Notes: generated by a model from the sequence alone, not told the origin. A stretch of DNA of 64,000 nucleotides from Chthoniobacterales bacterium (GCA_035635435.1 DASQBB010000013.1:1286-65285); one strand, 5' to 3'; numbered from the stretch's first letter, positions 52,111-60,575 are shown. A program made the numbers and translations.

Positions 52111-52407
52111 ATGGCAGGAGTGAACGTAAAACCGCTCGGAGACCGGGTGCTGGTGCAGCCGATTGAAGAGCAGGAAACAAAAAAAGGCGGGATCATTATT
52201 CCCGACACTGCGAAAGAAAAACCGCAGGAAGGCAAAGTGGTCGCTCTCGGCACCGGCAAGGTGAACGAAGAGGGCAAGAAGGTGGATTTCACCGTGAAGA
52301 AAGGGGACAAGGTTCTCATTTCGAAATACGGCGGCACCGAAATCAAAATCGATGGCGAAACTTTCCTGATCATGCGCGAGGACGACATCCTCGGCATCAT
52401 CGGCTGA
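52111..52407 (+). CDS. groES: Co-chaperonin GroES
   Basis: [42 protein letters not shown]. Confidence 0.97.
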
Positions 52408-52444
52408 TGCGCCAAATAACATTTAACCAATAACTAGGAACTAA

Positions 52445-54082
<1,638 letters not shown>

Positions 54083-54110
54083 TCCGAAACCGAAACAACA
54101 ATTAACAAAC

Positions 54111-54145
54111 AGCCGAGCTCGCAAGGGCTCGGCTGTTTTGCTTTT
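54111..54145 (+). terminator. Rho-independent terminator of groESL
   Basis: agccgagc-tcgcaagg-gctcggct followed by gttttgctttt. Confidence 0.7.
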
Positions 54146-54211
54146 GCATCCCGTTCCGGAGCCCGCACGTGAAGATTCCTACGGAGTGATAATCCAAATA
54201 GGAGGCCGAGG

Positions 54212-54997
54212 TTAAATTGCTTCGTGAATCCATAGGAGTGAAAGGCTGCGGTTAAGTGTCGGGAAGTAAATCGCGTCTTCGGTAATGCAGGATTTATCGT
54301 CGCCTCGGAAGCCTTCTAGCCAATGGCCCGCTTCGATATCTGAGCAGCGAGAACATCGCTTGGTTTCGTTCACCTCGGCCGCGCAACTGTGCCCGTGAAT
54401 ATAATCATCCTCAAGGAGGGAGAACGAAAAGCCAGCCGACGGAATGAACCACAAACGGCGCCTATTTTGGGCCGAAATCAGCACGCATTCCTCCGTTGTC
54501 GTTAGAACGAATTGCACCGCTGTTGCCGTAAGGGCCGTCTGAAAGTCTTCGGCCACGCGTTTGATCAGCTCGAAGGAAGGCTCCTGATTGGCGGTGCGCG
54601 CTTTGATAAATTCCCGCGGCATCAGCAGTTCGGCTGCAAAAAGATTGGCTTCGTACTCTTCGGTTTCCTGCCGTTCTGACCAGTTATTTGTCTGCTTGTC
54701 GTCCACCGTTTCAATCTGTCGTGTATCTGGATGCAAAAAGAAGTGGCCGAGTTCATGGCCGATAACGAACCGCTTTTGTCCCTCGTATCTAAGCGAGCGC
54801 CGAACTGTGATCACTGCTGAGACGCCCCTCCGAACAAGACAACCGTCCATTCCTTGTAGCGAAGCGTAGCGGACCTCAGCATTCTTAAACATAGCGATTC
54901 GTTCGATGTCGATCTCGCTCGGATCTTTGATCTGCAATTCGGCGAGCAGGCCGTCTGCTTTGGCGAGGACAATGGCTTTACGTTGGCTGGACGCCAT
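54212..54997 (-). CDS. ImmA/IrrE-family zinc metallopeptidase with a ~110-aa C-terminal extension
   Basis: FVIGHELGHFFLHP (HExxH) and EEYEANLFAAELLMP. The C-terminal part contains HGHSCAAEVNETKRCSRCSDIEAGHW. Confidence 0.75.
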   Translation of the reverse strand: MASSQRKAIVLAKADGLLAELQIKDPSEIDIERIAMFKNAEVRYASLQGMDGCLVRRGVSAVITVRRSLRYEGQKRFVIGHELGHFFLHPDTRQIETVDDKQTNNWSERQETEEYEANLFAAELLMPREFIKARTANQEPSFELIKRVAEDFQTALTATAVQFVLTTTEECVLISAQNRRRLWFIPSAGFSFSLLEDDYIHGHSCAAEVNETKRCSRCSDIEAGHWLEGFRGDDKSCITEDAIYFPTLNRSLSLLWIHEAI

Positions 54998-55426
54998 TTA
55001 AGTGCTGTCAGTGCCCTTTCCCTGAGTTCGTTTTTGTAAACGTTCATCGGCTTCGAGGATGGCTGCCATATCCTGCAAGGAAAGAGTCCCCTTGTTTTTG
55101 AACGCAAGAGCCCTCTCAGGACCGCCGGCCTTCAAGAACCTGGCGAACGCTATAAGTACGTGTTCTGGTTTTTGATCGGACCATTGCGCTCCGGGCGTCT
55201 CCGCTATACGAAGGGATTCTTTTTTTTCATCAGCAACTCGCATCCATGCGAGGCGCTCATGCTTGTCATGGGCCGCTATAATTGCATCCATCTTCTGCAG
55301 GAGCGCATCGATATCGATCCCGCGATCTTGTAGCTCGATTCTCAACTGATCGGACGAGAGGGCATCCGACTGTTGATCCAATCCGTTCAATAGATTCTCC
55401 ATTGGACCTGGCTCATCATTCGTCAT
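54998..55426 (-). CDS. Hypothetical acidic 142-aa protein
   Basis: I recognise no motif. Its stop abuts the ImmA start and its start lies 1 nt after the sigma-like stop. Confidence 0.5.
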   Translation of the reverse strand: MTNDEPGPMENLLNGLDQQSDALSSDQLRIELQDRGIDIDALLQKMDAIIAAHDKHERLAWMRVADEKKESLRIAETPGAQWSDQKPEHVLIAFARFLKAGGPERALAFKNKGTLSLQDMAAILEADERLQKRTQGKGTDST

Positions 55427-55427
55427 T

Positions 55428-56081
55428 TTAGTTTCCTTCCTGTAATCGCCGCTGCAATTCTTCGAAGTTAGTGACTCCGAAAAATTTTCGGGCGTATTTC
55501 GTCAATTTCCTCCGAAGTTCATCCACCTGAGCACCGGAGATTCCCATTAATTCACTTATCTCTGATCGTTTGAAGCCGACACTCAATGCTTCGATGTATT
55601 TTTGCATTTCGTCGTCGCCGTCAAACGAGGCTATCAGCGCCCCAATGCACCGCCGCTGATCTTCACGAAGCTCGTCACCGCGCAATTTCTCATCAGGCGT
55701 GAGGGCTATCGCTACGGCAGTCGAAATTGGATCGGACGGATTTCCCTCCTCATCAGTTTCCTTAGTATAATCGACGATGCCACTGCGGTCGGAGCGCTTC
55801 TTTTCTGCAGATATTAAGCTATCAGTGACGGAATTGAGGTTATCGAGAAGCGGTCTGCTCGGGTCAAAAGCGCGCCGACCGTTAATCAGTCGCAAGACTG
55901 CTTCCGAGACGAAATCCTTTGCCGTCTTATCGCCGACCATTACCTCACCCTGTGCGGAGTATCTCGGACGGTAGCCGCGCCAGATATATCTCCGGATCGT
56001 TGTGTCAGCGTGGATCGCGGCACGGGCGACCGTGTCGCGATAGCCCGGCTCGGCTAACGCAGCTTTTAGGGCAGGGTTCAT
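55428..56081 (-). CDS. Sigma70-family (ECF-like) factor candidate
   Basis: Region-2-like AKDFVSEAVLRLINGRRAFDP. Region-4-like HTH YIEALSVGFKRSEISELMGISGAQVDELRRKLTKYARK. I chose the ATG at 56081, because the longer tracked ORF (to 56234) would overlap the Ubl gene head-to-head. Confidence 0.5.
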   Translation of the reverse strand: MNPALKAALAEPGYRDTVARAAIHADTTIRRYIWRGYRPRYSAQGEVMVGDKTAKDFVSEAVLRLINGRRAFDPSRPLLDNLNSVTDSLISAEKKRSDRSGIVDYTKETDEEGNPSDPISTAVAIALTPDEKLRGDELREDQRRCIGALIASFDGDDEMQKYIEALSVGFKRSEISELMGISGAQVDELRRKLTKYARKFFGVTNFEELQRRLQEGN

Positions 56082-56210
56082 TTGGGGGGACCATTGGGTT
56101 CTCTCAGTAAACGCTCCGGATGAAAAGTTTTTTGGAAGATTTTTCCAGAAATCTCTGATTTCGGAGCGGAAGAAGGTGAGCGCGGACAACCCCGCCTCCT
56201 TTAACCTACT

Positions 56211-56489
56211 ATGAATACAACCCCGGAAACACAACAGCAGAAGACGCCGACTTCGCCAAACGCGAAGAAACCGGACATCGTGGAAATCTCAATCAACAGC
56301 AAGAAGTTCTCGACTGAACGTGGTAAGAACTCCGTGCAACATTTGCGGGAGCTTGGAAGCGTGCCGGCTAGCGAGATCTTGAGCGAGCTTAAGAACGGAA
56401 AATTCCATGACCTTCAGAACGACGGTCACGTCGAGATCAAGGGCGGCGAGGTGTTCGTTAGCCATCCTCCAAGCGGCGGTTCCTCCTAG
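56211..56489 (+). CDS. Ubiquitin-like (single beta-grasp, multiubiquitin-type) protein ending GG-SS
   Basis: IVEISINSKKFSTERGKNSVQHLRELGSVPASEILSELKNGKFHDLQNDGHVEIKGGEVFVSHPPSGGSS. It is the first gene of an operon with E2, JAB and E1. Confidence 0.6.
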   Translation: MNTTPETQQQKTPTSPNAKKPDIVEISINSKKFSTERGKNSVQHLRELGSVPASEILSELKNGKFHDLQNDGHVEIKGGEVFVSHPPSGGSS

Positions 56490-56842
56490 TGAGCTTCCCT
56501 CCAGACGAAATCGCAGAGATGAAAGCGGCCTTCGCTGGTTTATCGACAGCCAGCGAGGGCGGAACTGAGTTCATTCTAATATCTTCGCTCAAATTACCCG
56601 ACGGGTGCGATCCTGCCGTTGTAGATGCACTGCTGTGTCCATCGACGCGTGATGGATATCCGTCGCGGCTTTATTTATCCGCTCGAGTCAGTCATCAAGG
56701 CCCAGGCCAAAATTGGAGCGCCGATCAGGTTATTCTTGGCCGACGATGGTTTGCAGTGTCGTGGCGAACGCAAGAGTCTGCGGGTCGCCTCCTGGCGATT
56801 CTTGCGGGGCATCTTGAAGCGTTTACATGCAAACGAAGCTAA
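56489..56842 (+). CDS. Mini E2/UBC-like protein (prokaryotic E2 family E-like)
   Basis: LKLPDGCDPAVVDALLCPSTRDGYPSRLYL...RRWFAVSWRT. The GTG start shares one nucleotide with the Ubl stop. The family call is from memory and operon context. Confidence 0.5.
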   Translation: MSFPPDEIAEMKAAFAGLSTASEGGTEFILISSLKLPDGCDPAVVDALLCPSTRDGYPSRLYLSARVSHQGPGQNWSADQVILGRRWFAVSWRTQESAGRLLAILAGHLEAFTCKRS

Positions 56843-58182
56843 AGATTCCAAGGTTACTAGTCGAAGCAGCGCTTGCAGACCTATATCGGCCGCACCCAGT
56901 CGCAGCTGAACGCGTCGGGTTCTTCTCTACAAAAGTCACTCGCGCTAAGAGCATCGTAATCGTCCATTGCATCGCATATCATCCGGTGTCAGACGCGGAC
57001 TACATTCGCGATAATTCGGTTGGAGCTCGGATCGGGTCGGGAGCTATTACAGAGGCGATGGCGCGCTGCGCCGCCGATGTTGGGCAGCTTCATGTTCATG
57101 CGCACGGCGGCCGAGGTACGCCCGTACCGAGCATCACGGATAGCAGCGAAACACCTTCGGTAGCACGGAGCTTGTGGAATGTTAACCGAAAGCATGCGTG
57201 CGGCTGGGGAATTCTCAGCGACGACGGCGGCTGGGCGTCCGTCCTTATTTCACCTGAGCGAGACGATGCTGTGGAAGGCCAGGTTGCGCTGATTGGGTAC
57301 CCGATCACAGTCGCCCGGGCGCGACGCATAGCGGTTCAAGCGCCGCTGTGGTGGCGAAAACTATTTCGCCGAAAGTGCGCAATAGGGAATAGGTACGATC
57401 GACAGAGCTTTCTTGGCCCAGATTCAGACAAAATCTTTGCGAACTTGCGCGTCGGGATCGTTGGTCTCGGCGGCGGCGGATCTCACATCGCGCAACAATT
57501 GGCGCATCTCGGTGTGTGCCACTTCGTGCTTTGCGATCCTGACACGATTTCGGAATCAAATCTCAACCGCACGGTGGCAGCGACAGAGTCCGACGTCGAC
57601 CACCACACCTGCAAAACGACAATCGCGAAGCGACAAATTCGCGGATTACATCCGGATGCCGATATTGTTGTTATTGGAAAATGGCAAAGCCGCAGTGAGC
57701 CCCTGCTTCATTGTGACGTTGTCCTAGGATGCGTTGATACTTTCGCTGGCAGACGGGATTTGGAATCCTTTTGCCGCCGCCATCTAATTCCCTATGTCGA
57801 TGTTGGCATGGACGTGCTTAAAGAATCAGGTCGCGGCCATGAAATCATCGGCCAAGTAATTCTCTCAATGCCCGGCCGACCGTGCATGCATTGCATGGGT
57901 TTTCTAACGGAAGAGCTGCTCGCCGAGGAGGCTCGCAGATACGGTGCTGCGGGAGGACGACCACAGGTTGTCTTTGCTAACGGAGTAATCTGCTCAGCGG
58001 GGGTGGGCGTCGTTGTCGATCTTGTAACAAGTTGGTCGGGTAATCGGCGTCAGTCGGTGTATCTAAACTTCCGCGGCAGTGACCTGTCATTGCGTGATGA
58101 TCCGCGACTCCGGCATTTGGCCGACACATGCGAGCATTATCCATTGATCCAAGCGGGCGATCCTACCTGGACCCCGTTGTAA
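56827..58182 (+). CDS. JAB/MPN+ metalloprotease fused to a ThiF/E1-like adenylyltransferase
   Basis: JAB: Glu28 (AAERVGFF) and HVH-x10-SITD. E1: RVGIVGLGGGGSHIAQQL, LCDPDTISESNLNRT and PCMHCMG. Confidence 0.8.
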   Translation: MQTKLKIPRLLVEAALADLYRPHPVAAERVGFFSTKVTRAKSIVIVHCIAYHPVSDADYIRDNSVGARIGSGAITEAMARCAADVGQLHVHAHGGRGTPVPSITDSSETPSVARSLWNVNRKHACGWGILSDDGGWASVLISPERDDAVEGQVALIGYPITVARARRIAVQAPLWWRKLFRRKCAIGNRYDRQSFLGPDSDKIFANLRVGIVGLGGGGSHIAQQLAHLGVCHFVLCDPDTISESNLNRTVAATESDVDHHTCKTTIAKRQIRGLHPDADIVVIGKWQSRSEPLLHCDVVLGCVDTFAGRRDLESFCRRHLIPYVDVGMDVLKESGRGHEIIGQVILSMPGRPCMHCMGFLTEELLAEEARRYGAAGGRPQVVFANGVICSAGVGVVVDLVTSWSGNRRQSVYLNFRGSDLSLRDDPRLRHLADTCEHYPLIQAGDPTWTPL

Positions 58183-58183
58183 G

Positions 58184-58645
58184 ATGATGAACGGGCAGGA
58201 TCCAAAATTGCGCGAAATATGGTTTCAGAAAGACATTCCAGTTGTTTATCGTCCTGGCGGATCAGATCAGTTACTCGTGCGTTTGCCGTATGCTTCGGAC
58301 AATCGCGTTTGGCTTAAAGGGCACCACCGGATTAAGCCAAAATGGAATCCGGAACACAAACGATGGGAGATCGCGAAGGCTTGGTTCGAGGATGTGGTGA
58401 AACGTGCGATGGCGAAGTACGGATCCGTTTACGTTATTGAACCTTTTCGCGTGCAAAAGAAATGCGCACCGGCCTGTTGGAACGCGAAGGGACTCGAGTG
58501 CGACTGCTCATGTATGGGCGAGTATCACGGAACGGGCGACCCAGGCGGTCGATGGTACGTTATTGCCGATTCACTCGCCGTGAATTGGGGGCCACGTCGG
58601 TACTCTTATAAACTGCTGAAACCTACGGCACCGGCTTCACTCTGA
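58184..58645 (+). CDS. Hypothetical Cys/His-cluster protein, fourth gene of the Ubl operon
   Basis: LLVRLPYASDNRVWLKG...KWNPEHKRWEI, then CAPACWNAKGLECDCSCMGEYHG. The start lies 1 nt after the E1 stop. Confidence 0.5.
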   Translation: MMNGQDPKLREIWFQKDIPVVYRPGGSDQLLVRLPYASDNRVWLKGHHRIKPKWNPEHKRWEIAKAWFEDVVKRAMAKYGSVYVIEPFRVQKKCAPACWNAKGLECDCSCMGEYHGTGDPGGRWYVIADSLAVNWGPRRYSYKLLKPTAPASL

Positions 58646-58739
58646 TTGCTGTGTCTTCGTGATCTTTCGTGTGCTTCGTGGTGAAGCCGTGGGTCGCGTT
58701 TGCTGACGGGGCGTTTTTCTGCAACCTTTCCCGCCACCT

Positions 58740-60101
58740 GTGGAAAATTACGTTTCGAATTTGATGGCCGAGGTGAAGGCCAAGAACCCGGGCGAAACCG
58801 AGTTTCACCAGGCGGTGCAGGAGGTGGTCGAGTCGCTTACGCTGGTTTTGGATCGAGACTCGCGCTATCGCAAAGCGAAAGTCCTCGAGCGCATTATTGA
58901 GCCGGAACGTGTGATCATGTTCCGCGTGCCGTGGCAAGACGACAAAGGCGAGATCCACGTCAATCGTGGTTTCCGGGTGCAAATGAACAGCGCGATCGGA
59001 CCTTACAAAGGCGGGCTGCGATTTCATTCCACCGTCAATCTCGGCATCCTGAAATTTCTGGCTTTCGAACAAGTTTTTAAAAATGCGCTGACCACACTTC
59101 CAATGGGCGGCGGCAAGGGCGGCTCCGATTTCGATCCGCATGGAAAAAGCGATGCCGAGGTGACGCGTTTTTGTCAGGCGTTCATGTGCGAACTTTTCCG
59201 CCACATCGGCCCCGACACGGACGTTCCGGCGGGCGACATCGGCGTCGGCGCCCGCGAGATCGGGTTTTTGTTCGGAATGTATAAGCGGCTCAAAAACGAA
59301 TTCACCGGCGTGATGACGGGCAAAGGATTGACCTGGGGCGGATCAGTCATTCGTCCGGAGGCGACCGGTTACGGTGCGGTTTATTTCGCGGAAGAGATGC
59401 TCAAAACGCGCAAGGAAGATCTCAAGGGCAAGACCGCGCTCGTTTCGGGAAGCGGGAACGTCGCGCAATACACGGTCGAGAAATTGATCACGTTAGGCGC
59501 GAAGCCGGTCACGATGTCGGATTCCACCGGCTACATTTTTGATGAGGAAGGAGTCACGCGCGAGAAATTGGCGTTCGTGATGGACCTGAAAAATGTCCGG
59601 CGCGGGCGCATCTCCGAATACGCCGACAAATTCAAAGGCGCAGTGTTCACGCCGACGAACCCGAAGCTCGATCACAATCCGCTGTGGAATCACAAGGCGG
59701 AGTGCGCGTTCCCGAGCGCGACCCAGAACGAGATCAACGGCAAGGACGCAGCCAATCTGTTGAAGAACGGCGTTTACGTTGTTTCCGAAGGCGCGAACAT
59801 GCCGACGACAATCGACGGCATCAATCAGTTCTTGGACGCGAAGATTTTGTTCGGACCCGGTAAAGCGGCGAATGCCGGCGGCGTCGCGACTTCCGGATTG
59901 GAGATGGCGCAGAACAGTATGCGGATCAGGTGGACGCGTGAAGAAGTTGACGCGCGCCTGTTCAACATCATGAAAACGATCCACGAAGTTTGCGCGCGCA
60001 CCGCCGAGAAGTACGGGACGCCGGGAAATTACGTGAACGGCGCGAACATCGCCGGCTTTGTTAAAGTGGCCGACGCGATGCTGGACCAGGGACTCGTCTA
60101 A
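58740..60101 (+). CDS. gdhA: Glutamate dehydrogenase
   Basis: NPGETEFHQAVQEV and LPMGGGKGGSDFDPHGKS, plus GSGNVAQY. Confidence 0.95.
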   Translation: MENYVSNLMAEVKAKNPGETEFHQAVQEVVESLTLVLDRDSRYRKAKVLERIIEPERVIMFRVPWQDDKGEIHVNRGFRVQMNSAIGPYKGGLRFHSTVNLGILKFLAFEQVFKNALTTLPMGGGKGGSDFDPHGKSDAEVTRFCQAFMCELFRHIGPDTDVPAGDIGVGAREIGFLFGMYKRLKNEFTGVMTGKGLTWGGSVIRPEATGYGAVYFAEEMLKTRKEDLKGKTALVSGSGNVAQYTVEKLITLGAKPVTMSDSTGYIFDEEGVTREKLAFVMDLKNVRRGRISEYADKFKGAVFTPTNPKLDHNPLWNHKAECAFPSATQNEINGKDAANLLKNGVYVVSEGANMPTTIDGINQFLDAKILFGPGKAANAGGVATSGLEMAQNSMRIRWTREEVDARLFNIMKTIHEVCARTAEKYGTPGNYVNGANIAGFVKVADAMLDQGLV

Positions 60102-60103
60102 AA

Positions 60104-60138
60104 AGTGACGAGTGACGAGTGACGAGTGACGGGTGACG
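60104..60138. repeat. Heptamer tandem repeat (AGTGACG)x5
   Basis: agtgacg agtgacg agtgacg agtgacg ggtgacg. It starts 3 nt after the gdhA stop. Confidence 0.85.
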
Positions 60139-60143
60139 AGAGG

Positions 60144-60575
60144 ATGAGCGCGAAGTATCCGAAGAGTCCGAACGAGAAAACTGCGAACGGCATGGTTTAT
60201 TTCTCGCGGATGCTGGACAAGATCCGGCTCCACGCGCGCGGCGAGCTCCACCAGGATTATCATAAGAATCTTGGCGCGATGAGAGCGGCCGACGGCGCGT
60301 GCTGCAATTTTTTGCGGGTGGATTATGCCGATCTTCGCGAGCGAGTGGCGCAAGGCGGAAGCGACGAAGAAATTCTGGAATGGTGTTTCGAAAAAGGCCG
60401 CCGGCTTAACGAAGGCGACATCGTGGTCTGGAACGGGTTCGCCTCCAAACTGGGCTGGCGCGACTTCATGTCGCCGCGGTTTCAGAAATTAAAAGAAGAG
60501 CAAGGTTGCGCCGATCGCGACGATATCGTGTGCGTTCCCGACCTGATGGATTTCGAAGAAGGGCGACTCAAGTAG
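60144..60575 (+). CDS. DUF5069-like protein
   Basis: YPKSPNEKTANGMVYFSRMLDKIRLHARGEL matches my memory of DUF5069. I chose the ATG at 60144. Confidence 0.5.
   Translation: MSAKYPKSPNEKTANGMVYFSRMLDKIRLHARGELHQDYHKNLGAMRAADGACCNFLRVDYADLRERVAQGGSDEEILEWCFEKGRRLNEGDIVVWNGFASKLGWRDFMSPRFQKLKEEQGCADRDDIVCVPDLMDFEEGRLK

What the first reader, a model, noticed from the sequence alone, without database searches (positions are those of the whole stretch)
56211..58645. Complete ubiquitin-like conjugation operon: Ubl(GG-SS), mini-E2, JAB-E1 fusion and a Cys-rich protein
Four translationally coupled + strand genes: a 1-nt stop/start overlap at 56489, a 16-nt overlap at 56827-56842, and a 1-nt gap at 58183. 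(1) A 92-aa protein whose residues ~22-85 look like a single beta-grasp Ubl of the 'multiubiquitin' type. It ends PPSGG-SS, a di-glycine followed by two removable residues. (2) A 117-aa protein with the LPDG..D.LLCP...DGYPSRLY...W..VSW pattern that I associate with prokaryotic E2 family E. (3) A 451-aa fusion of a JAB/MPN+ metalloprotease (Glu28, HVH-x10-SITD) to a ThiF/E1 adenylation domain (GLGGGGSH, DPDTISESNLNRT, CMHC). (4) A 153-aa Cys/His-cluster protein. Ubl, E2, E1 and JAB together are the full parts list for a conjugation/deconjugation cycle. The JAB domain could both trim the SS tail and reverse conjugation. Related bacterial systems (CBASS Cap2/Cap3, BilABCD, Bub operons) have been linked to anti-phage defence. 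This architecture differs: a free single-domain Ubl, a free mini-E2, JAB fused N-terminally to E1, an extra Cys-rich gene and a sigma/ImmA module next door. To my knowledge (from memory, unverified) it has only been predicted computationally and has no known target or phenotype. The E2 has no Cys in a canonical HPN...C context (Cys40, Cys50 and Cys114 exist). I cannot tell whether it uses a thioester or, as reported for Bub pathways, an oxyester.
Basis: partly seen in the sequence, partly recalled or inferred. Interest (0 to 1): 0.85.

Follow-up and report, generated by a model that had tools for sequence, protein, structure and literature searches.

The report
Bub-like ubiquitin-type conjugation operon, no BubE
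This is a real three-gene bacterial ubiquitin-like tagging system (small tag, E2-like carrier, protease-E1 fusion), a distant and unstudied cousin of the recently characterised "Bub" pathway; it sits beside a DNA-damage-type switch, and the fourth, cysteine-rich gene probably belongs to that switch.

Summary
The order Ubl, E2, JAB-E1 is conserved in about 80 loci from many phyla. The JAB-E1 family occurs in 314 of 185,579 species genomes.

The closest known system is Type I Bub (the "6E/DUF6527" operons). *Citrobacter* BubCD is the best solved-structure match to the 451-aa protein. It aligns collinearly across the JAMM motif and the adenylation domain. BubB is the only convincing fold match to the 117-aa protein. 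Relatives of the Ubl hit Pfam Multi_ubiq.

It is not a member of Type I Bub as defined:
- No DUF6527/BubE is present here or in any of the 80 related loci.
- Ubl and E2 are separate genes.
- The His that partners the catalytic Ser in BubB is replaced by Lys or Arg.
- The window's Ubl, E2 and JAB parts fall below Pfam, NCBIfam and PADLOC thresholds.

The invariant residues favour Bub-type oxyester chemistry: E1 Tyr372 and E2 Ser91. "CMHC" is half of a structural zinc site. The Ubl "GG" is not conserved, but a tiny-residue tail ending in SS is.

The Cys-rich gene is not a core part. Close relatives lack it, and elsewhere its one recurrent neighbour is capP. The "ImmA" gene is CapP, here paired with a sigma-like protein and a 142-aa partner instead of CapH. 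Target and phenotype remain unknown.

The parts
54212..54997 (-). CapP: ImmA/IrrE-type (M78) metallopeptidase, 261 aa. It is the regulator protease of the adjacent operon.
   Evidence: PADLOC capP 4.9e-54 over the full length. Pfam Peptidase_M78 3.6e-16. A CapP-like gene lies upstream of the Ubl operon in 59 of 82 related loci.
54998..55426 (-). 142-aa acidic protein between the sigma-like gene and capP. It occupies the position that CapH (an HTH repressor) holds in most relatives. It is the candidate CapP substrate or anti-sigma partner (inferred).
   Evidence: No hit in Pfam, NCBIfam, PADLOC or PHROGs. A gene of about 115-165 aa sits in the same position in at least 15 loci that carry a sigma-like gene plus capP, but its sequence is poorly conserved.
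55428..56081 (-). Divergent sigma-70/ECF-like protein, 217 aa, with a region-2-like N-terminal part and a region-4-like C-terminal HTH.
   Evidence: TIGR02937 1.6e-5, below the cut-off. Sigma70_r2 0.007-0.011. Iterative search finds the family upstream of capP in 19 loci, including next to a CBASS operon. Lau et al. 2022 report 24 CBASS systems with capH and capP plus a predicted sigma factor.
56082..56210 (.). 129-bp divergent intergenic (promoter) region with two short inverted repeats, TGGAAgatttTTCCA and GAAATCtctGATTTC.
   Evidence: Read directly from the sequence. No sigma-70 consensus promoter is found here. The window repeats are below the repeat finder's threshold. Stronger AT-rich palindromes occur at the same place in L013, L061 and L022.
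56211..56489 (+). Ubl precursor, 92 aa. It has a disordered, polar N-terminal ~21 residues and one predicted beta-grasp domain, with the tail ...IKGGEVFVSHPPSGG-SS.
   Evidence: ORF. Homologues lie immediately upstream of E2 in 78 of 82 loci. 9 of 29 family members hit Pfam Multi_ubiq, best 1.6e-4, but the window protein itself does not. Conserved tail.
56489..56842 (+). Mini-E2 (BubB-like trimmed UBC fold), 117 aa. The invariant Ser91 codon is at 56759-56761.
   Evidence: AF2 model pLDDT 87.8. Foldseek against PDB: the top and only convincing hit is 9eae_C, Citrobacter BubB (prob 1.00, TM 0.63/0.59); next is an L. major E2 at TM 0.41. Invariant residues are D46, Y57, W87, S91 and W92. hhalign to a Prok-E2_E protein gives 71%, E 3.7e-5.
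56827..57321 (+). JAB/JAMM metallopeptidase domain of the 451-aa fusion (residues ~1-165), with E28, H91, H93, S102 and D105.
   Evidence: The motif is invariant in 32 homologues. The family profile aligns positions 74-331 with chain residues 75-317 of solved Citrobacter BubCD across HxH...D, E 8e-24. BubCD active-site residues are E28, H91, H93 and D104. Only 1 of 32 members hits Pfam Prok-JAB.
57394..58182 (+). ThiF/E1 adenylation domain of the fusion (residues ~190-451). It has the GLGGGGSH nucleotide loop (213-220), R248 and D304, a zinc site (C353, C356, C435, H437), and an invariant crossover-loop Tyr372 (codon 57940-57942).
   Evidence: Pfam ThiF 1.8e-28. BubCD is the best PDB match, 1.4e-12. 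Invariant residues. Alignment with canonical BubCD proteins.
58184..58645 (+). P4: Cys-rich small protein, 153 aa (152 aa from the second ATG). It has an N-terminal alpha/beta domain, an invariant C94-x3-C98-x7-C106-x-C108-S-C110-x4-H115 cluster, and a C-terminal beta-hairpin. It is an accessory gene that is more often linked to capP than to E1.
   Evidence: Family alignment. AF2 pLDDT 86.9. No PDB fold match. Phage homologue and HARP-like partial matches. Not DUF6527. Absent from all 80 genome loci and from the close relatives L175 and L176. capP lies directly upstream in 15 loci.

Best explanation
The window carries an inducible protein-tagging system from a distinct, uncharacterised sister clade of Type I Bub. 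It also carries a CapP-based stress switch.

**Switch (inferred from homologues).** CapP is a metallopeptidase that, in studied systems, is activated by single-stranded DNA. Here it is paired with a sigma-like protein and a 142-aa partner instead of the usual HTH repressor CapH. DNA damage or phage replication would activate CapP. CapP would then cleave its partner, and the divergent Ubl operon would be transcribed.

**Conjugation (inferred by homology to assayed Citrobacter Bub proteins).**
1. The JAB domain trims the two C-terminal serines of the pro-Ubl (...SGG|SS).
2. The dimeric ThiF-type E1 domain adenylates the exposed C-terminus.
3. The invariant crossover-loop Tyr372 takes the Ubl as an oxyester.
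4. The Ubl passes to the invariant Ser91 of the trimmed UBC-fold E2.
5. It is then attached to lysines of unknown targets.

No BubE serine protease is present, so the JAB domain is the only candidate for reversing conjugation.

**The Cys-rich protein.** It is not part of the conjugation core. It is a zinc-cluster protein with a probable DNA-binding domain that usually follows capP. It most likely works with the switch.

**Shown here:** the ORFs, their conservation, the homology and fold relationships, and the invariant residues. **Not shown:** any activity, the chemistry, the target or the phenotype.
For: - **Conserved synteny.** Ubl, E2, (JAB)E1 occur in that order in 78-82 of 82 loci across many phyla, and the JAB-E1 family is found in 314 of 185,579 species genomes.
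- **JAB-E1.** ThiF 1.8e-28. Citrobacter BubCD is the best PDB hit: 1.4e-12 for the single sequence, and 8e-24 for the family profile, which spans both domains. E28, H91, H93, S102 and D105 are invariant.
- **E2.** A confident model (pLDDT 87.8) has BubB as its only convincing structural match. Ser91 is the only invariant nucleophile apart from Tyr57. MAFFT places it on the Ser of the 'WSRH' active-site motif of an Agrobacterium BubAB.
- **E1 chemistry.** Tyr372 is invariant, 16 residues after the CxxC. It sits in a segment whose flanking G373, P379, V381, N385 and S390 also align with canonical BubCD proteins. C353/C356 and C435/H437 align with the CxxC...CxxC of canonical Bub E1s, so they are zinc ligands. 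Bub biochemistry (Tyr370 and Ser333 oxyesters, JAB cleavage after Gly) comes from Ye et al., bioRxiv 10.1101/2024.11.21.623953.
- **Ubl.** Multi_ubiq hits in 9 of 29 relatives. The tail is conserved. A naturally fused Ubl-E2 relative keeps ...PSGGSS-SIIP... at the junction.
- **Switch.** capP 4.9e-54. CapP-like genes flank 59 of 82 loci. The same capP, ~140-aa, sigma-like trio is present in close relatives. 31% of Bub operons carry CapH+CapP.
- **P4.**
Against: - There is no experimental evidence for this clade.
- The window's Ubl, E2 and JAB parts do not reach any curated HMM threshold.
- The Ubl fold was not modelled.
- The Tyr372 to BubCD Tyr370 correspondence is positional only. The loop is about 10 residues shorter, MAFFT places Tyr372 on a different Bub residue two to three positions from the invariant Gly, and the C-terminal profile found nothing in the PDB.
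- The His at +2 from the catalytic Ser in Type I BubB is Lys, Arg, Asn, Gln or Met here.
- E2 Cys50 is nearly invariant (33 of 34, Ser in the exception), so a thioester cannot be excluded.
- The Gly at the presumed processing site is replaced by Ser, Ala or Thr in many relatives, so the true C-terminal residue is unknown.
- The sigma assignment is weak. Palindromes in the promoter regions of relatives would suit a dimeric repressor better than a sigma factor.
- Bub operons themselves have not been shown to protect against phage (PMC13373217).
Confidence: 0.68

Rival explanations
1. Same machinery but classical thioester chemistry. The nearly invariant E2 Cys50 (LLCP) is the E2 nucleophile, so this clade differs mechanistically from Bub.
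For: Cys50 is conserved in 33 of 34 homologues, and the single exception has Ser, another nucleophile. Canonical Bub E2s have Pro at that column, so the Cys is clade-specific. The His partner of the Bub catalytic Ser is missing here.
Against: Cys50 lies at the end of strand beta-3 of the model, not in the loop before helix alpha-2 where E2 catalytic residues sit. Ser91 is at that position and is invariant. The E1 crossover region has no Cys other than the zinc ligands, so there is no E1 thioester donor.
Confidence: 0.15
2. The Cys-rich protein is this clade's functional replacement for BubE (the 'metal-binding protein Y' of family 6e). In that reading it is a Ubl-specific peptidase, an E3 or a target adaptor, and the four genes form one machine.
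For: - It occupies the position that DUF6527 holds in 6e/Bub operons and is translationally coupled to E1.
- It has an invariant Cys cluster plus an invariant Ser109 and His115. This recalls BubE's C4 zinc site and Ser-His dyad.
- The arrangement recurs in one independent contig, L088.
Against: - No DUF6527 hit in 35 members. hhalign probability is 0.7%.
- The predicted fold is alpha/beta plus a hairpin, not BubE's beta-sandwich.
- It is absent from all 80 genome loci and from the 75%- and 67%-identical relatives L175 and L176, one of which sits at the same groEL site.
- Of 89 P4 loci, only the window-type ones place it after E1. Its one recurrent neighbour is capP.
- Fusions are to GIY-YIG and T5orf172 domains, not to Ubl machinery.
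Confidence: 0.12
3. The 'sigma-like' protein is not a sigma factor. It is a dimeric HTH repressor that is itself the CapP substrate, a long-form CapH. The 142-aa protein would then be an accessory.
For: Sigma models are only weakly matched and fall below cut-off. Several members score as generic HTH domains. Divergent promoter regions of relatives carry clear palindromes, for example the 13+13 nt perfect palindrome in L013, which is typical of dimeric repressors.
Against: TIGR02937 aligns over residues 102-247 of the long ORF, covering both region-2-like and region-4-like parts. No sigma-70 consensus promoter precedes the Ubl operon. Lau et al. also classed the CBASS-linked homologues as sigma-70 family. 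The window's own inverted repeats are short.
Confidence: 0.25
4. It is not a protein-conjugation system at all. Instead it is a ThiS/MoaD-type sulfur-carrier or peptide-modification (MccB-like) pathway, with an inactive RWD-like E2 domain.
For: Iyer et al. 2006 predicted the 6e E2-like domain to be catalytically inactive. ThiF, MoeB and MccB are among the E1 domain's sequence matches.
Against: - The closest relatives, the Citrobacter and E. coli Bub proteins, do conjugate in vitro and in cells.
- There is no rhodanese or biosynthetic partner gene.
- The distribution is sporadic, includes plasmids, and is linked to CapP.
- The E2 has an invariant Ser/Trp site.
Confidence: 0.05

Closest known systems
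Type I Bub operons (6E.1/DUF6527: BubAB, BubCD, BubE). Ye, Gong, Chambers & Corbett, bioRxiv 10.1101/2024.11.21.623953; PDB 9ea4, 9ea5, 9eae
   Same: - A JAB-E1 fusion of the same length and domain order (451 aa against 456 aa), with the same JAMM residues.
- A single homodimer-type adenylation domain with no catalytic-Cys domain.
- An invariant crossover-loop Tyr.
- A trimmed UBC-fold E2 with an invariant Ser.
[quoted passage not shown]
- Frequent CapP-type regulators.
   Different: - No DUF6527/BubE here or in the 80 related loci.
- Ubl and E2 are separate genes; only one fusion was seen, L018.
- JAB and E1 are also split in about 20 loci and on plasmids.
- E1 identity to canonical BubCD is only 23-28%.
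- The crossover loop is about 10 residues shorter.
- The E2 His at +2 is replaced by Lys or Arg.
- The Ubl ends in [G/S/A][G/S/A/T]-S-S rather than running on into E2.
- Canonical Bub proteins pass Pfam Multi_ubiq, Prok-E2_E, Prok-JAB and DUF6527 with large margins. The window's proteins do not.
Split-gene Bub variant on Bradyrhizobium plasmids (L174: Multi_ubiq 83 aa, Prok-E2_E 127 aa, JAB-ThiF, phosphotransferase, DUF6527)
   Same: A free single-domain Ubl and a free small E2 followed by the E1.
   Different: It still has DUF6527 plus a kinase-like gene. Its proteins are ordinary members of the Pfam families. E1 is 28% identical to the window's.
Bil (Type I/II BilABCD). Chambers et al., bioRxiv 10.1101/2023.09.26.559546
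   Same: It has Ubl, E2, JAB and E1 components. The gene order Ubl-E2-JAB-E1 matches the split form of this clade on the Methylovirgula plasmid.
   Different: Bil E1 is a multidomain IAD-AAD-CYS protein with a catalytic Cys, and Bil E2 has a catalytic Cys (CEHH motif). Neither feature is present here.
CapH+CapP regulators. Lau et al., bioRxiv 10.1101/2022.04.27.489752
   Same: A full-length CapP homologue is encoded divergently from the regulated operon.
   Different: No HTH CapH is present. Instead there is a sigma-like protein and a 142-aa protein with no family. Lau et al. noted 24 CBASS systems with an added sigma factor but did not study them. The P4 gene that often follows capP does not appear in the papers read here.

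Membership tests
Type I Bub (6E.1) | BubCD: an N-terminal JAB/JAMM peptidase fused to a single ThiF-type E1 domain | tested here: met
   Pfam ThiF 1.8e-28. The family profile matches solved BubCD at 8e-24, collinear over both domains. The JAMM residues are invariant.
Type I Bub (6E.1) | BubE: a DUF6527/PF20137 serine protease encoded in the operon ('all Bub operons possess bubE') | tested here: not met
   No DUF6527 hit for the fourth protein or for 35 of its homologues. hhalign probability 0.7%. No conserved downstream gene and no CxCxC ORF in the 80 related loci. Positive controls score 4e-23 and 7e-18.
Type I Bub (6E.1) | BubAB: Ubl and E2 made as one polypeptide that BubCD cleaves | tested here: not met
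   They are separate ORFs with a stop after ...GGSS. Only L018 is fused.
Type I Bub (6E.1) | E1 crossover loop without a catalytic Cys and with an invariant Tyr | tested here: inconclusive
   Tyr372 is invariant and the only Cys residues nearby are zinc ligands. The residue-level equivalence to BubCD Tyr370 is not resolved by alignment.
Type I Bub (6E.1) | E2 with an invariant Ser, plus His at +2 and an upstream Asp | tested here: inconclusive
   Ser91 is invariant and aligns with the Ser of WSRH. Position +2 is K, R, N, Q or M, so the His is not met. The Asp equivalent is ambiguous: D46 by MAFFT, none by hhalign.
Pfam Prok-E2_E (PF14462) | Score at or above the gathering threshold (25 bits) | tested here: not met
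   No hit for the window protein at E <= 1. 3 of 34 homologues hit, at E >= 0.12. The fold is nevertheless BubB-like.
Pfam Multi_ubiq (PF14452) | Score at or above the gathering threshold; beta-grasp fold | tested here: inconclusive
   The window protein has no hit. 9 of 29 homologues hit, best 1.6e-4. The N-terminal domain of the L018 relative scores 2.7e-17. The fold was not modelled.
Pfam Prok-JAB (PF14464) | Score at or above the gathering threshold | tested here: not met
   No hit for the window protein, and 1 of 32 homologues at 0.002. The catalytic motif is present.
Bil (BilABCD) | A multidomain E1 with a mobile catalytic-Cys domain, and an E2 with a catalytic Cys | tested here: not met
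   The E1 is a single adenylation domain of about 260 residues with no inserted domain. The E2 has no Cys at the catalytic position.
Type II CBASS Cap2/Cap3 | An E2-E1 fusion acting on a CD-NTase encoded in the operon | tested here: not met
   PADLOC E1-E2 models match only the adenylation core. There is no CD-NTase gene in the island.
CapH+CapP regulator pair | A CapP M78 peptidase plus an adjacent HTH repressor, CapH | tested here: inconclusive
   CapP is met (4.9e-54). CapH is not met: the adjacent 142-aa protein has no HTH or any other family. A sigma-like protein is present instead. ssDNA activation cannot be tested here.

The most novel reading that the evidence does not exclude
This would be a third branch of the Bub-type oxyester conjugation systems. 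It would work without the BubE protease and use a different E2 catalytic environment (Ser with Lys/Arg instead of Ser-His). It would be switched on by a new kind of defence-system regulator, in which the ssDNA-activated protease CapP destroys an anti-sigma-like partner to release a dedicated sigma factor. A small HARP-like zinc-cluster DNA-binding protein (P4) would act as a fourth module component. P4 is found next to capP in CBASS and other systems as well.
Probability: 0.3. Interest if true: 0.75.

Novelty: new variant of a known kind. Interest (0 to 1): 0.58.

Why it matters
Bub pathways are the only known ubiquitin-type cascades that run on oxyester intermediates. Their biological role is still unproven, and they were catalogued through DUF6527.

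This clade is in 314 species genomes and on plasmids of cultured rhizobia and methylotrophs. It has the same core but no BubE, a different E2 active-site partner, and proteins that Pfam, NCBIfam and PADLOC do not recognise. It is therefore missing from defence-system censuses.

It offers a natural experiment on three questions: what BubE is for, whether the Tyr/Ser relay is general, and what the minimal conjugation set is.

The CapP, sigma-like and 142-aa cassette, and the P4 family (831 cluster representatives with no annotation), point to an unstudied way of coupling DNA damage to defence-gene transcription. The same cassette is also attached to CBASS.

Tried and rejected
**Searches that found nothing**
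- Sequence and profile searches of the PDB with the E2, the Ubl, P4 and the E1 C-terminal third gave nothing significant. The E2 assignment therefore rests on fold, and the Tyr372 to Tyr370 match on position.
- Foldseek of P4 against the PDB found no convincing match (best E 0.015, TM 0.32).
- Direct repeats flanking the island: only weak, chance-level pairs.
- Sigma-70 promoter scan of the divergent region: none.
- Inverted-repeat search of the window's intergenic region: nothing above threshold.
- Literature search for a 'Type III Bub' or a BubE-less Bub: none in the held library.

**Ideas rejected**
- P4 as DUF6527/BubE.
- P4 as the 'CEHH' protein of Type II Bil. CEHH is the Bil E2, which is unrelated.
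- P4 as a conserved operon member.
- CMHC as a catalytic Cys motif. It aligns with the CxxC zinc motif of other Bub E1s, and the solved Citrobacter BubCD lacks it.
- GG as the defining Ubl terminus.

Full report
**1.

The + strand carries four tightly packed ORFs.
- A 92-aa ORF at 56211-56489, ending PPSGGSS.
- A 117-aa ORF at 56489-56842. Its GTG start shares one base with the preceding TAG.
- A 451-aa ORF at 56827-58182, which overlaps the previous gene by 16 nt.
- A 153-aa ORF at 58184-58645, starting one base after the TAA. Homologues start at the second Met.

The same sequence occurs on two metagenome contigs, where gene callers made the same calls. The seven-gene island lies between groES-groEL and gdhA. 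A hairpin terminator follows groEL at 54107-54138. The island's G+C is slightly lower than the flanks, 0.50-0.56 against 0.55-0.59.

**2. What curated libraries say**

Only two parts are recognised outright. The 451-aa protein has a ThiF domain (Pfam 1.8e-28, residues 196-399). The 'ImmA-like' neighbour at 54212-54997 is a full-length CapP (PADLOC 4.9e-54; Pfam Peptidase_M78 3.6e-16).

The Ubl, the E2, the N-terminal third of the 451-aa protein and the Cys-rich protein have no hit at E <= 1 in Pfam. They also have none in NCBIfam or PADLOC.

**3. The JAB-E1 protein is a distant BubCD**

The best solved-structure match is *Citrobacter* BubCD, a peptidase-E1 fusion of 456 residues (1.4e-12, E1 part only). 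A profile of 32 homologues raises this to 8e-24. It also extends the alignment from profile position 74 to 331, through the HxH...S..D peptidase motif.

The family's invariant residues:
- E28, H91, H93, S102 and D105. BubCD uses E28, H91, H93 and D104.
- The GxGGGGSH nucleotide loop, R248 and D304.
- C353, C356, C435 and H437.
- Tyr372.

Aligned with two canonical Bub E1s from plasmids and the *Citrobacter* sequence (identity 23-28%), C353/C356 and C435/H437 fall on the CxxC...CxxC pairs of the canonical proteins.

BubCD's catalytic Tyr370 lies in LERGY-ITG...AP-S-V-I (the chain numbering is offset by 2). The window has EARRY-GAAGGRP-Q-V-V. The Gly, Pro, Val, Asn and Ser that follow are shared, but the loop is about 10 residues shorter, and MAFFT does not place the two tyrosines in the same column. 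A profile of the C-terminal third alone found nothing in the PDB.

I take Tyr372 as the probable equivalent. It is the only invariant nucleophile in the crossover region. The equivalence is inferred, not shown.

**4. The 117-aa protein is a BubB-like E2**

About 100 homologues were found. All are free-standing proteins of 81-122 aa with no Pfam domain. The AlphaFold model is confident (pLDDT 87.8).

In the PDB its only convincing neighbour is chain C of 9eae, *Citrobacter* BubB (probability 1.00, TM 0.63/0.59, 119 aligned columns). A *Leishmania* E2 follows at TM 0.41. hhalign links the family to a plasmid-borne Prok-E2_E protein at 71% probability (E 3.7e-5, N-terminal 58 residues only). Only 3 of 34 members touch Pfam Prok-E2_E, at E >= 0.12.

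Invariant residues are D46, L48, Y57, L61, W87, S91 and W92. C40, C50 and H108 are nearly invariant. Ser91 ends the last strand before helix alpha-2, which is where E2 catalytic residues sit. MAFFT puts it on the Ser of the WSRH motif of an *Agrobacterium* BubAB.

The His two residues later, invariant in Type I BubB, is Lys or Arg in most members here. Cys50 is conserved in 33 of 34, with Ser in the exception. It is a Pro in canonical Bub E2s. It lies at the end of beta-3, which is an unlikely catalytic position but cannot be excluded.

**5. The Ubl**

A homologous ORF precedes the E2 in 78 of 82 loci. Lengths run from 67 to 294 aa. The long forms carry extra N-terminal Multi_ubiq domains; the L018 N-terminus scores 2.7e-17. 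Of 29 short homologues, 9 hit Pfam Multi_ubiq (best 1.6e-4), but the window's protein does not.

The conserved C-terminus is IKGGExFxSHxxx[G/S/A][G/S/A/T][S/A]S-stop. The di-glycine is often GS, GA, GT, SG, AG or SA. Nearly all members stop exactly two residues after that position. The one natural Ubl-E2 fusion keeps ...VPSGGSS-SIIPHEQLEDLK... at the junction.

This fits descent from a BubAB-like fusion that the JAB domain cleaves, with the two serines as retained P1'-P2' residues.

**6. This is a separate clade, not Type I Bub**

A scan of one genome per species found relatives of the JAB-E1 in 314 of 185,579 species. Cultured hosts include *Flavobacterium fluvii*, *Zavarzinella formosa*, *Niabella aurantiaca*, *Larkinella bovis* and *Mucilaginibacter*. 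Relatives also occur on plasmids of *Bradyrhizobium*, *Methylovirgula*, *Bosea*, *Sphingobium*, *Rhizobium* and *Spirosoma*.

In the 80 loci fetched:
- The core is always Ubl, E2, (JAB)E1.
- No gene is conserved downstream of E1.
- No ORF with a DUF6527-like CxCxC motif lies near the core.
- In about 20 loci, and on the *Methylovirgula* plasmid, JAB and E1 are separate genes. NCBI annotates the E2 and JAB there as 'hypothetical protein'.

As controls, two canonical Bub operons from plasmids pass Pfam Multi_ubiq (8e-41), Prok-E2_E (3e-48 and 1e-13), Prok-JAB (7e-10) and DUF6527 (4e-23 and 7e-18). Ye et al. state that all Bub operons possess bubE, and the Bub catalogue was assembled from DUF6527-containing operons. 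This clade would therefore not have been collected.

Iyer et al. (2006) described family 6e as polyUbl, an inactive E2/RWD-like domain, JAB-E1 and a metal-binding protein. I found no description of the BubE-less form in the held library. The 2026 journal version of Ye et al. is not held.

**7. The Cys-rich protein (P4) is an accessory that travels with capP**

Its family has 831 cluster representatives at E <= 1e-3. Almost all are free-standing proteins of 140-200 aa with no Pfam domain. Invariant residues are W61, C94, C98, W99, C106, C108, S109, C110, G112 and H115.

It is not DUF6527. None of 35 members hit that model, and hhalign probability is 0.7%.

The model (pLDDT 86.9) has an N-terminal alpha/beta domain, a Cys-rich loop and a beta-hairpin. 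It has no convincing PDB neighbour. In the viral library it has one clear homologue (138 aa, 32% identity, E 1e-8). Its N-terminal domain gives partial matches to phage 'HepA-related' and SMARCAL1-like proteins, including a 73-aa target at TM 0.72. Its Cys motif matches phrog_6842 at 2.4e-4.

The resemblance to the HARP fold, and the sequence pattern LLVRLPY...W...KPKWNP..K.W, rest on those Foldseek matches and my own reading. They were not confirmed by any HMM. Three homologues are fused to GIY-YIG or MUG113/T5orf172 domains, which fits a DNA-binding role.

Its genomic contexts:
- It is absent from all 80 genome loci.
- It is absent from L175, whose E1 is 75% identical and which sits at the same groEL-adjacent site, and from L176 (67% identical).
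- It follows E1 only in the window's own contigs and in L088.
- In 89 P4 loci, the single recurrent neighbour is capP, directly upstream on the same strand (15 loci, median spacing -31 nt).
- One such cassette (sigma-like, 148 aa, capP, P4) faces a CBASS operon, and others face different E1/Ubl systems.
- In one 68%-identical relative, an unannotated 153-aa gene lies just beyond capP. No DNA was available to check it.

**8. The switch**

CapP-like genes lie upstream of the Ubl operon in 59 of 82 loci. They are usually paired with an XRE-type HTH of about 120 aa, which is CapH.

The window and its close relatives instead have a 217-aa sigma-like protein and a protein of about 140 aa with no recognisable family. 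The sigma assignment is weak: TIGR02937 1.6e-5, below cut-off, and Sigma70_r2 0.007-0.011. Iterative search finds this family upstream of capP in 19 loci. Lau et al. noted 24 CBASS systems in which capH and capP are accompanied by a predicted sigma factor.

The model 'CapP cleaves an anti-sigma-like partner and frees the sigma' is my inference. Palindromes in the divergent promoter regions of relatives (13+13 nt perfect in L013) argue that a dimeric repressor may be involved instead. The window's own repeats are short.

**9. Verdict**

The kind is known and biochemically characterised (Bub). This clade is a distinct, uncatalogued variant: no BubE, split genes, a different E2 catalytic partner and a conserved Ser-Ser tail.

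The fourth gene should be moved from the conjugation machine to the regulatory side. Function, target and phenotype are unknown. Even canonical Bub operons have not been shown to protect against phage (PMC13373217).

Noticed in passing
window 54212-56081 (- strand); also L175 2400-4260, L176 2383-4239, L091 4076-5961, L093 6063-7985, L098 2751-4637: A three-gene cassette (sigma-like ~200-230 aa, a poorly conserved ~115-165 aa protein, then capP) recurs as an alternative to capH-capP. It sits next to this Ubl system, a CBASS operon and other E1/Ubl systems. Only a one-line mention of the sigma factor was found in the literature (Lau et al. 2022).
   Followed up: partly
window 58184-58645; L091 6001-6447, L093 8001-8462, L115 8004-8477, L151 7995-8450, L165 4099-4662, L169 3438-3902: The Cys-rich P4 family (831 cluster representatives, no annotation) most often sits immediately downstream of capP. 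Its N-terminal domain gives Foldseek matches to phage HepA/SMARCAL1 (HARP-like) proteins. A few members are fused to GIY-YIG or T5orf172 domains, and a phage homologue exists (A0A6M3T8A1).
   Followed up: partly
window 56082-56210; L013 5267-5292; L061 5254-5296; L022 4845-4935: AT-rich palindromes lie in the divergent promoter regions of sigma-type loci. L013 has a perfect 13+13 nt palindrome, CGATTTTTTGCCA/TGGCAAAAAATCG. The window has only short ones (TGGAAgatttTTCCA, GAAATCtctGATTTC). They look like operator sites for a dimeric DNA-binding protein.
   Followed up: partly
L175 298-9000 compared with window 52111-60575: A related metagenome contig carries the same island at the same place, directly after groES-groEL, with a DUF5069 gene downstream. 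It lacks both P4 and gdhA, and has three other small genes after E1. The 3' edge of the island is therefore variable.
   Followed up: no
L028, L035, L061, L063-L082 (E1 ORF starts ~500 nt after the E2 end); L177 3423-4897: In about 20 loci and on several plasmids, the JAB domain and the E1 domain are separate, overlapping genes. This gives the order Ubl-E2-JAB-E1, the same order as BilABCD.
   Followed up: partly
L174 5151-6755: A canonical split-gene Bub operon on Bradyrhizobium symbiosis plasmids has a 534-aa 'phosphotransferase' gene inserted between the E1 and DUF6527.
   Followed up: no
L177 5074-8292: On the Methylovirgula plasmid, the Ubl-E2-JAB-E1 genes are followed on the same strand by an 'ATP-binding protein' and an S8 family peptidase. 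These may be an effector pair or an adjacent defence system.
   Followed up: no
window 54107-54138: A strong bidirectional hairpin (14 bp stem, 8 G-C pairs) lies between the end of groEL and the end of capP. It marks the left edge of the island.
   Followed up: no
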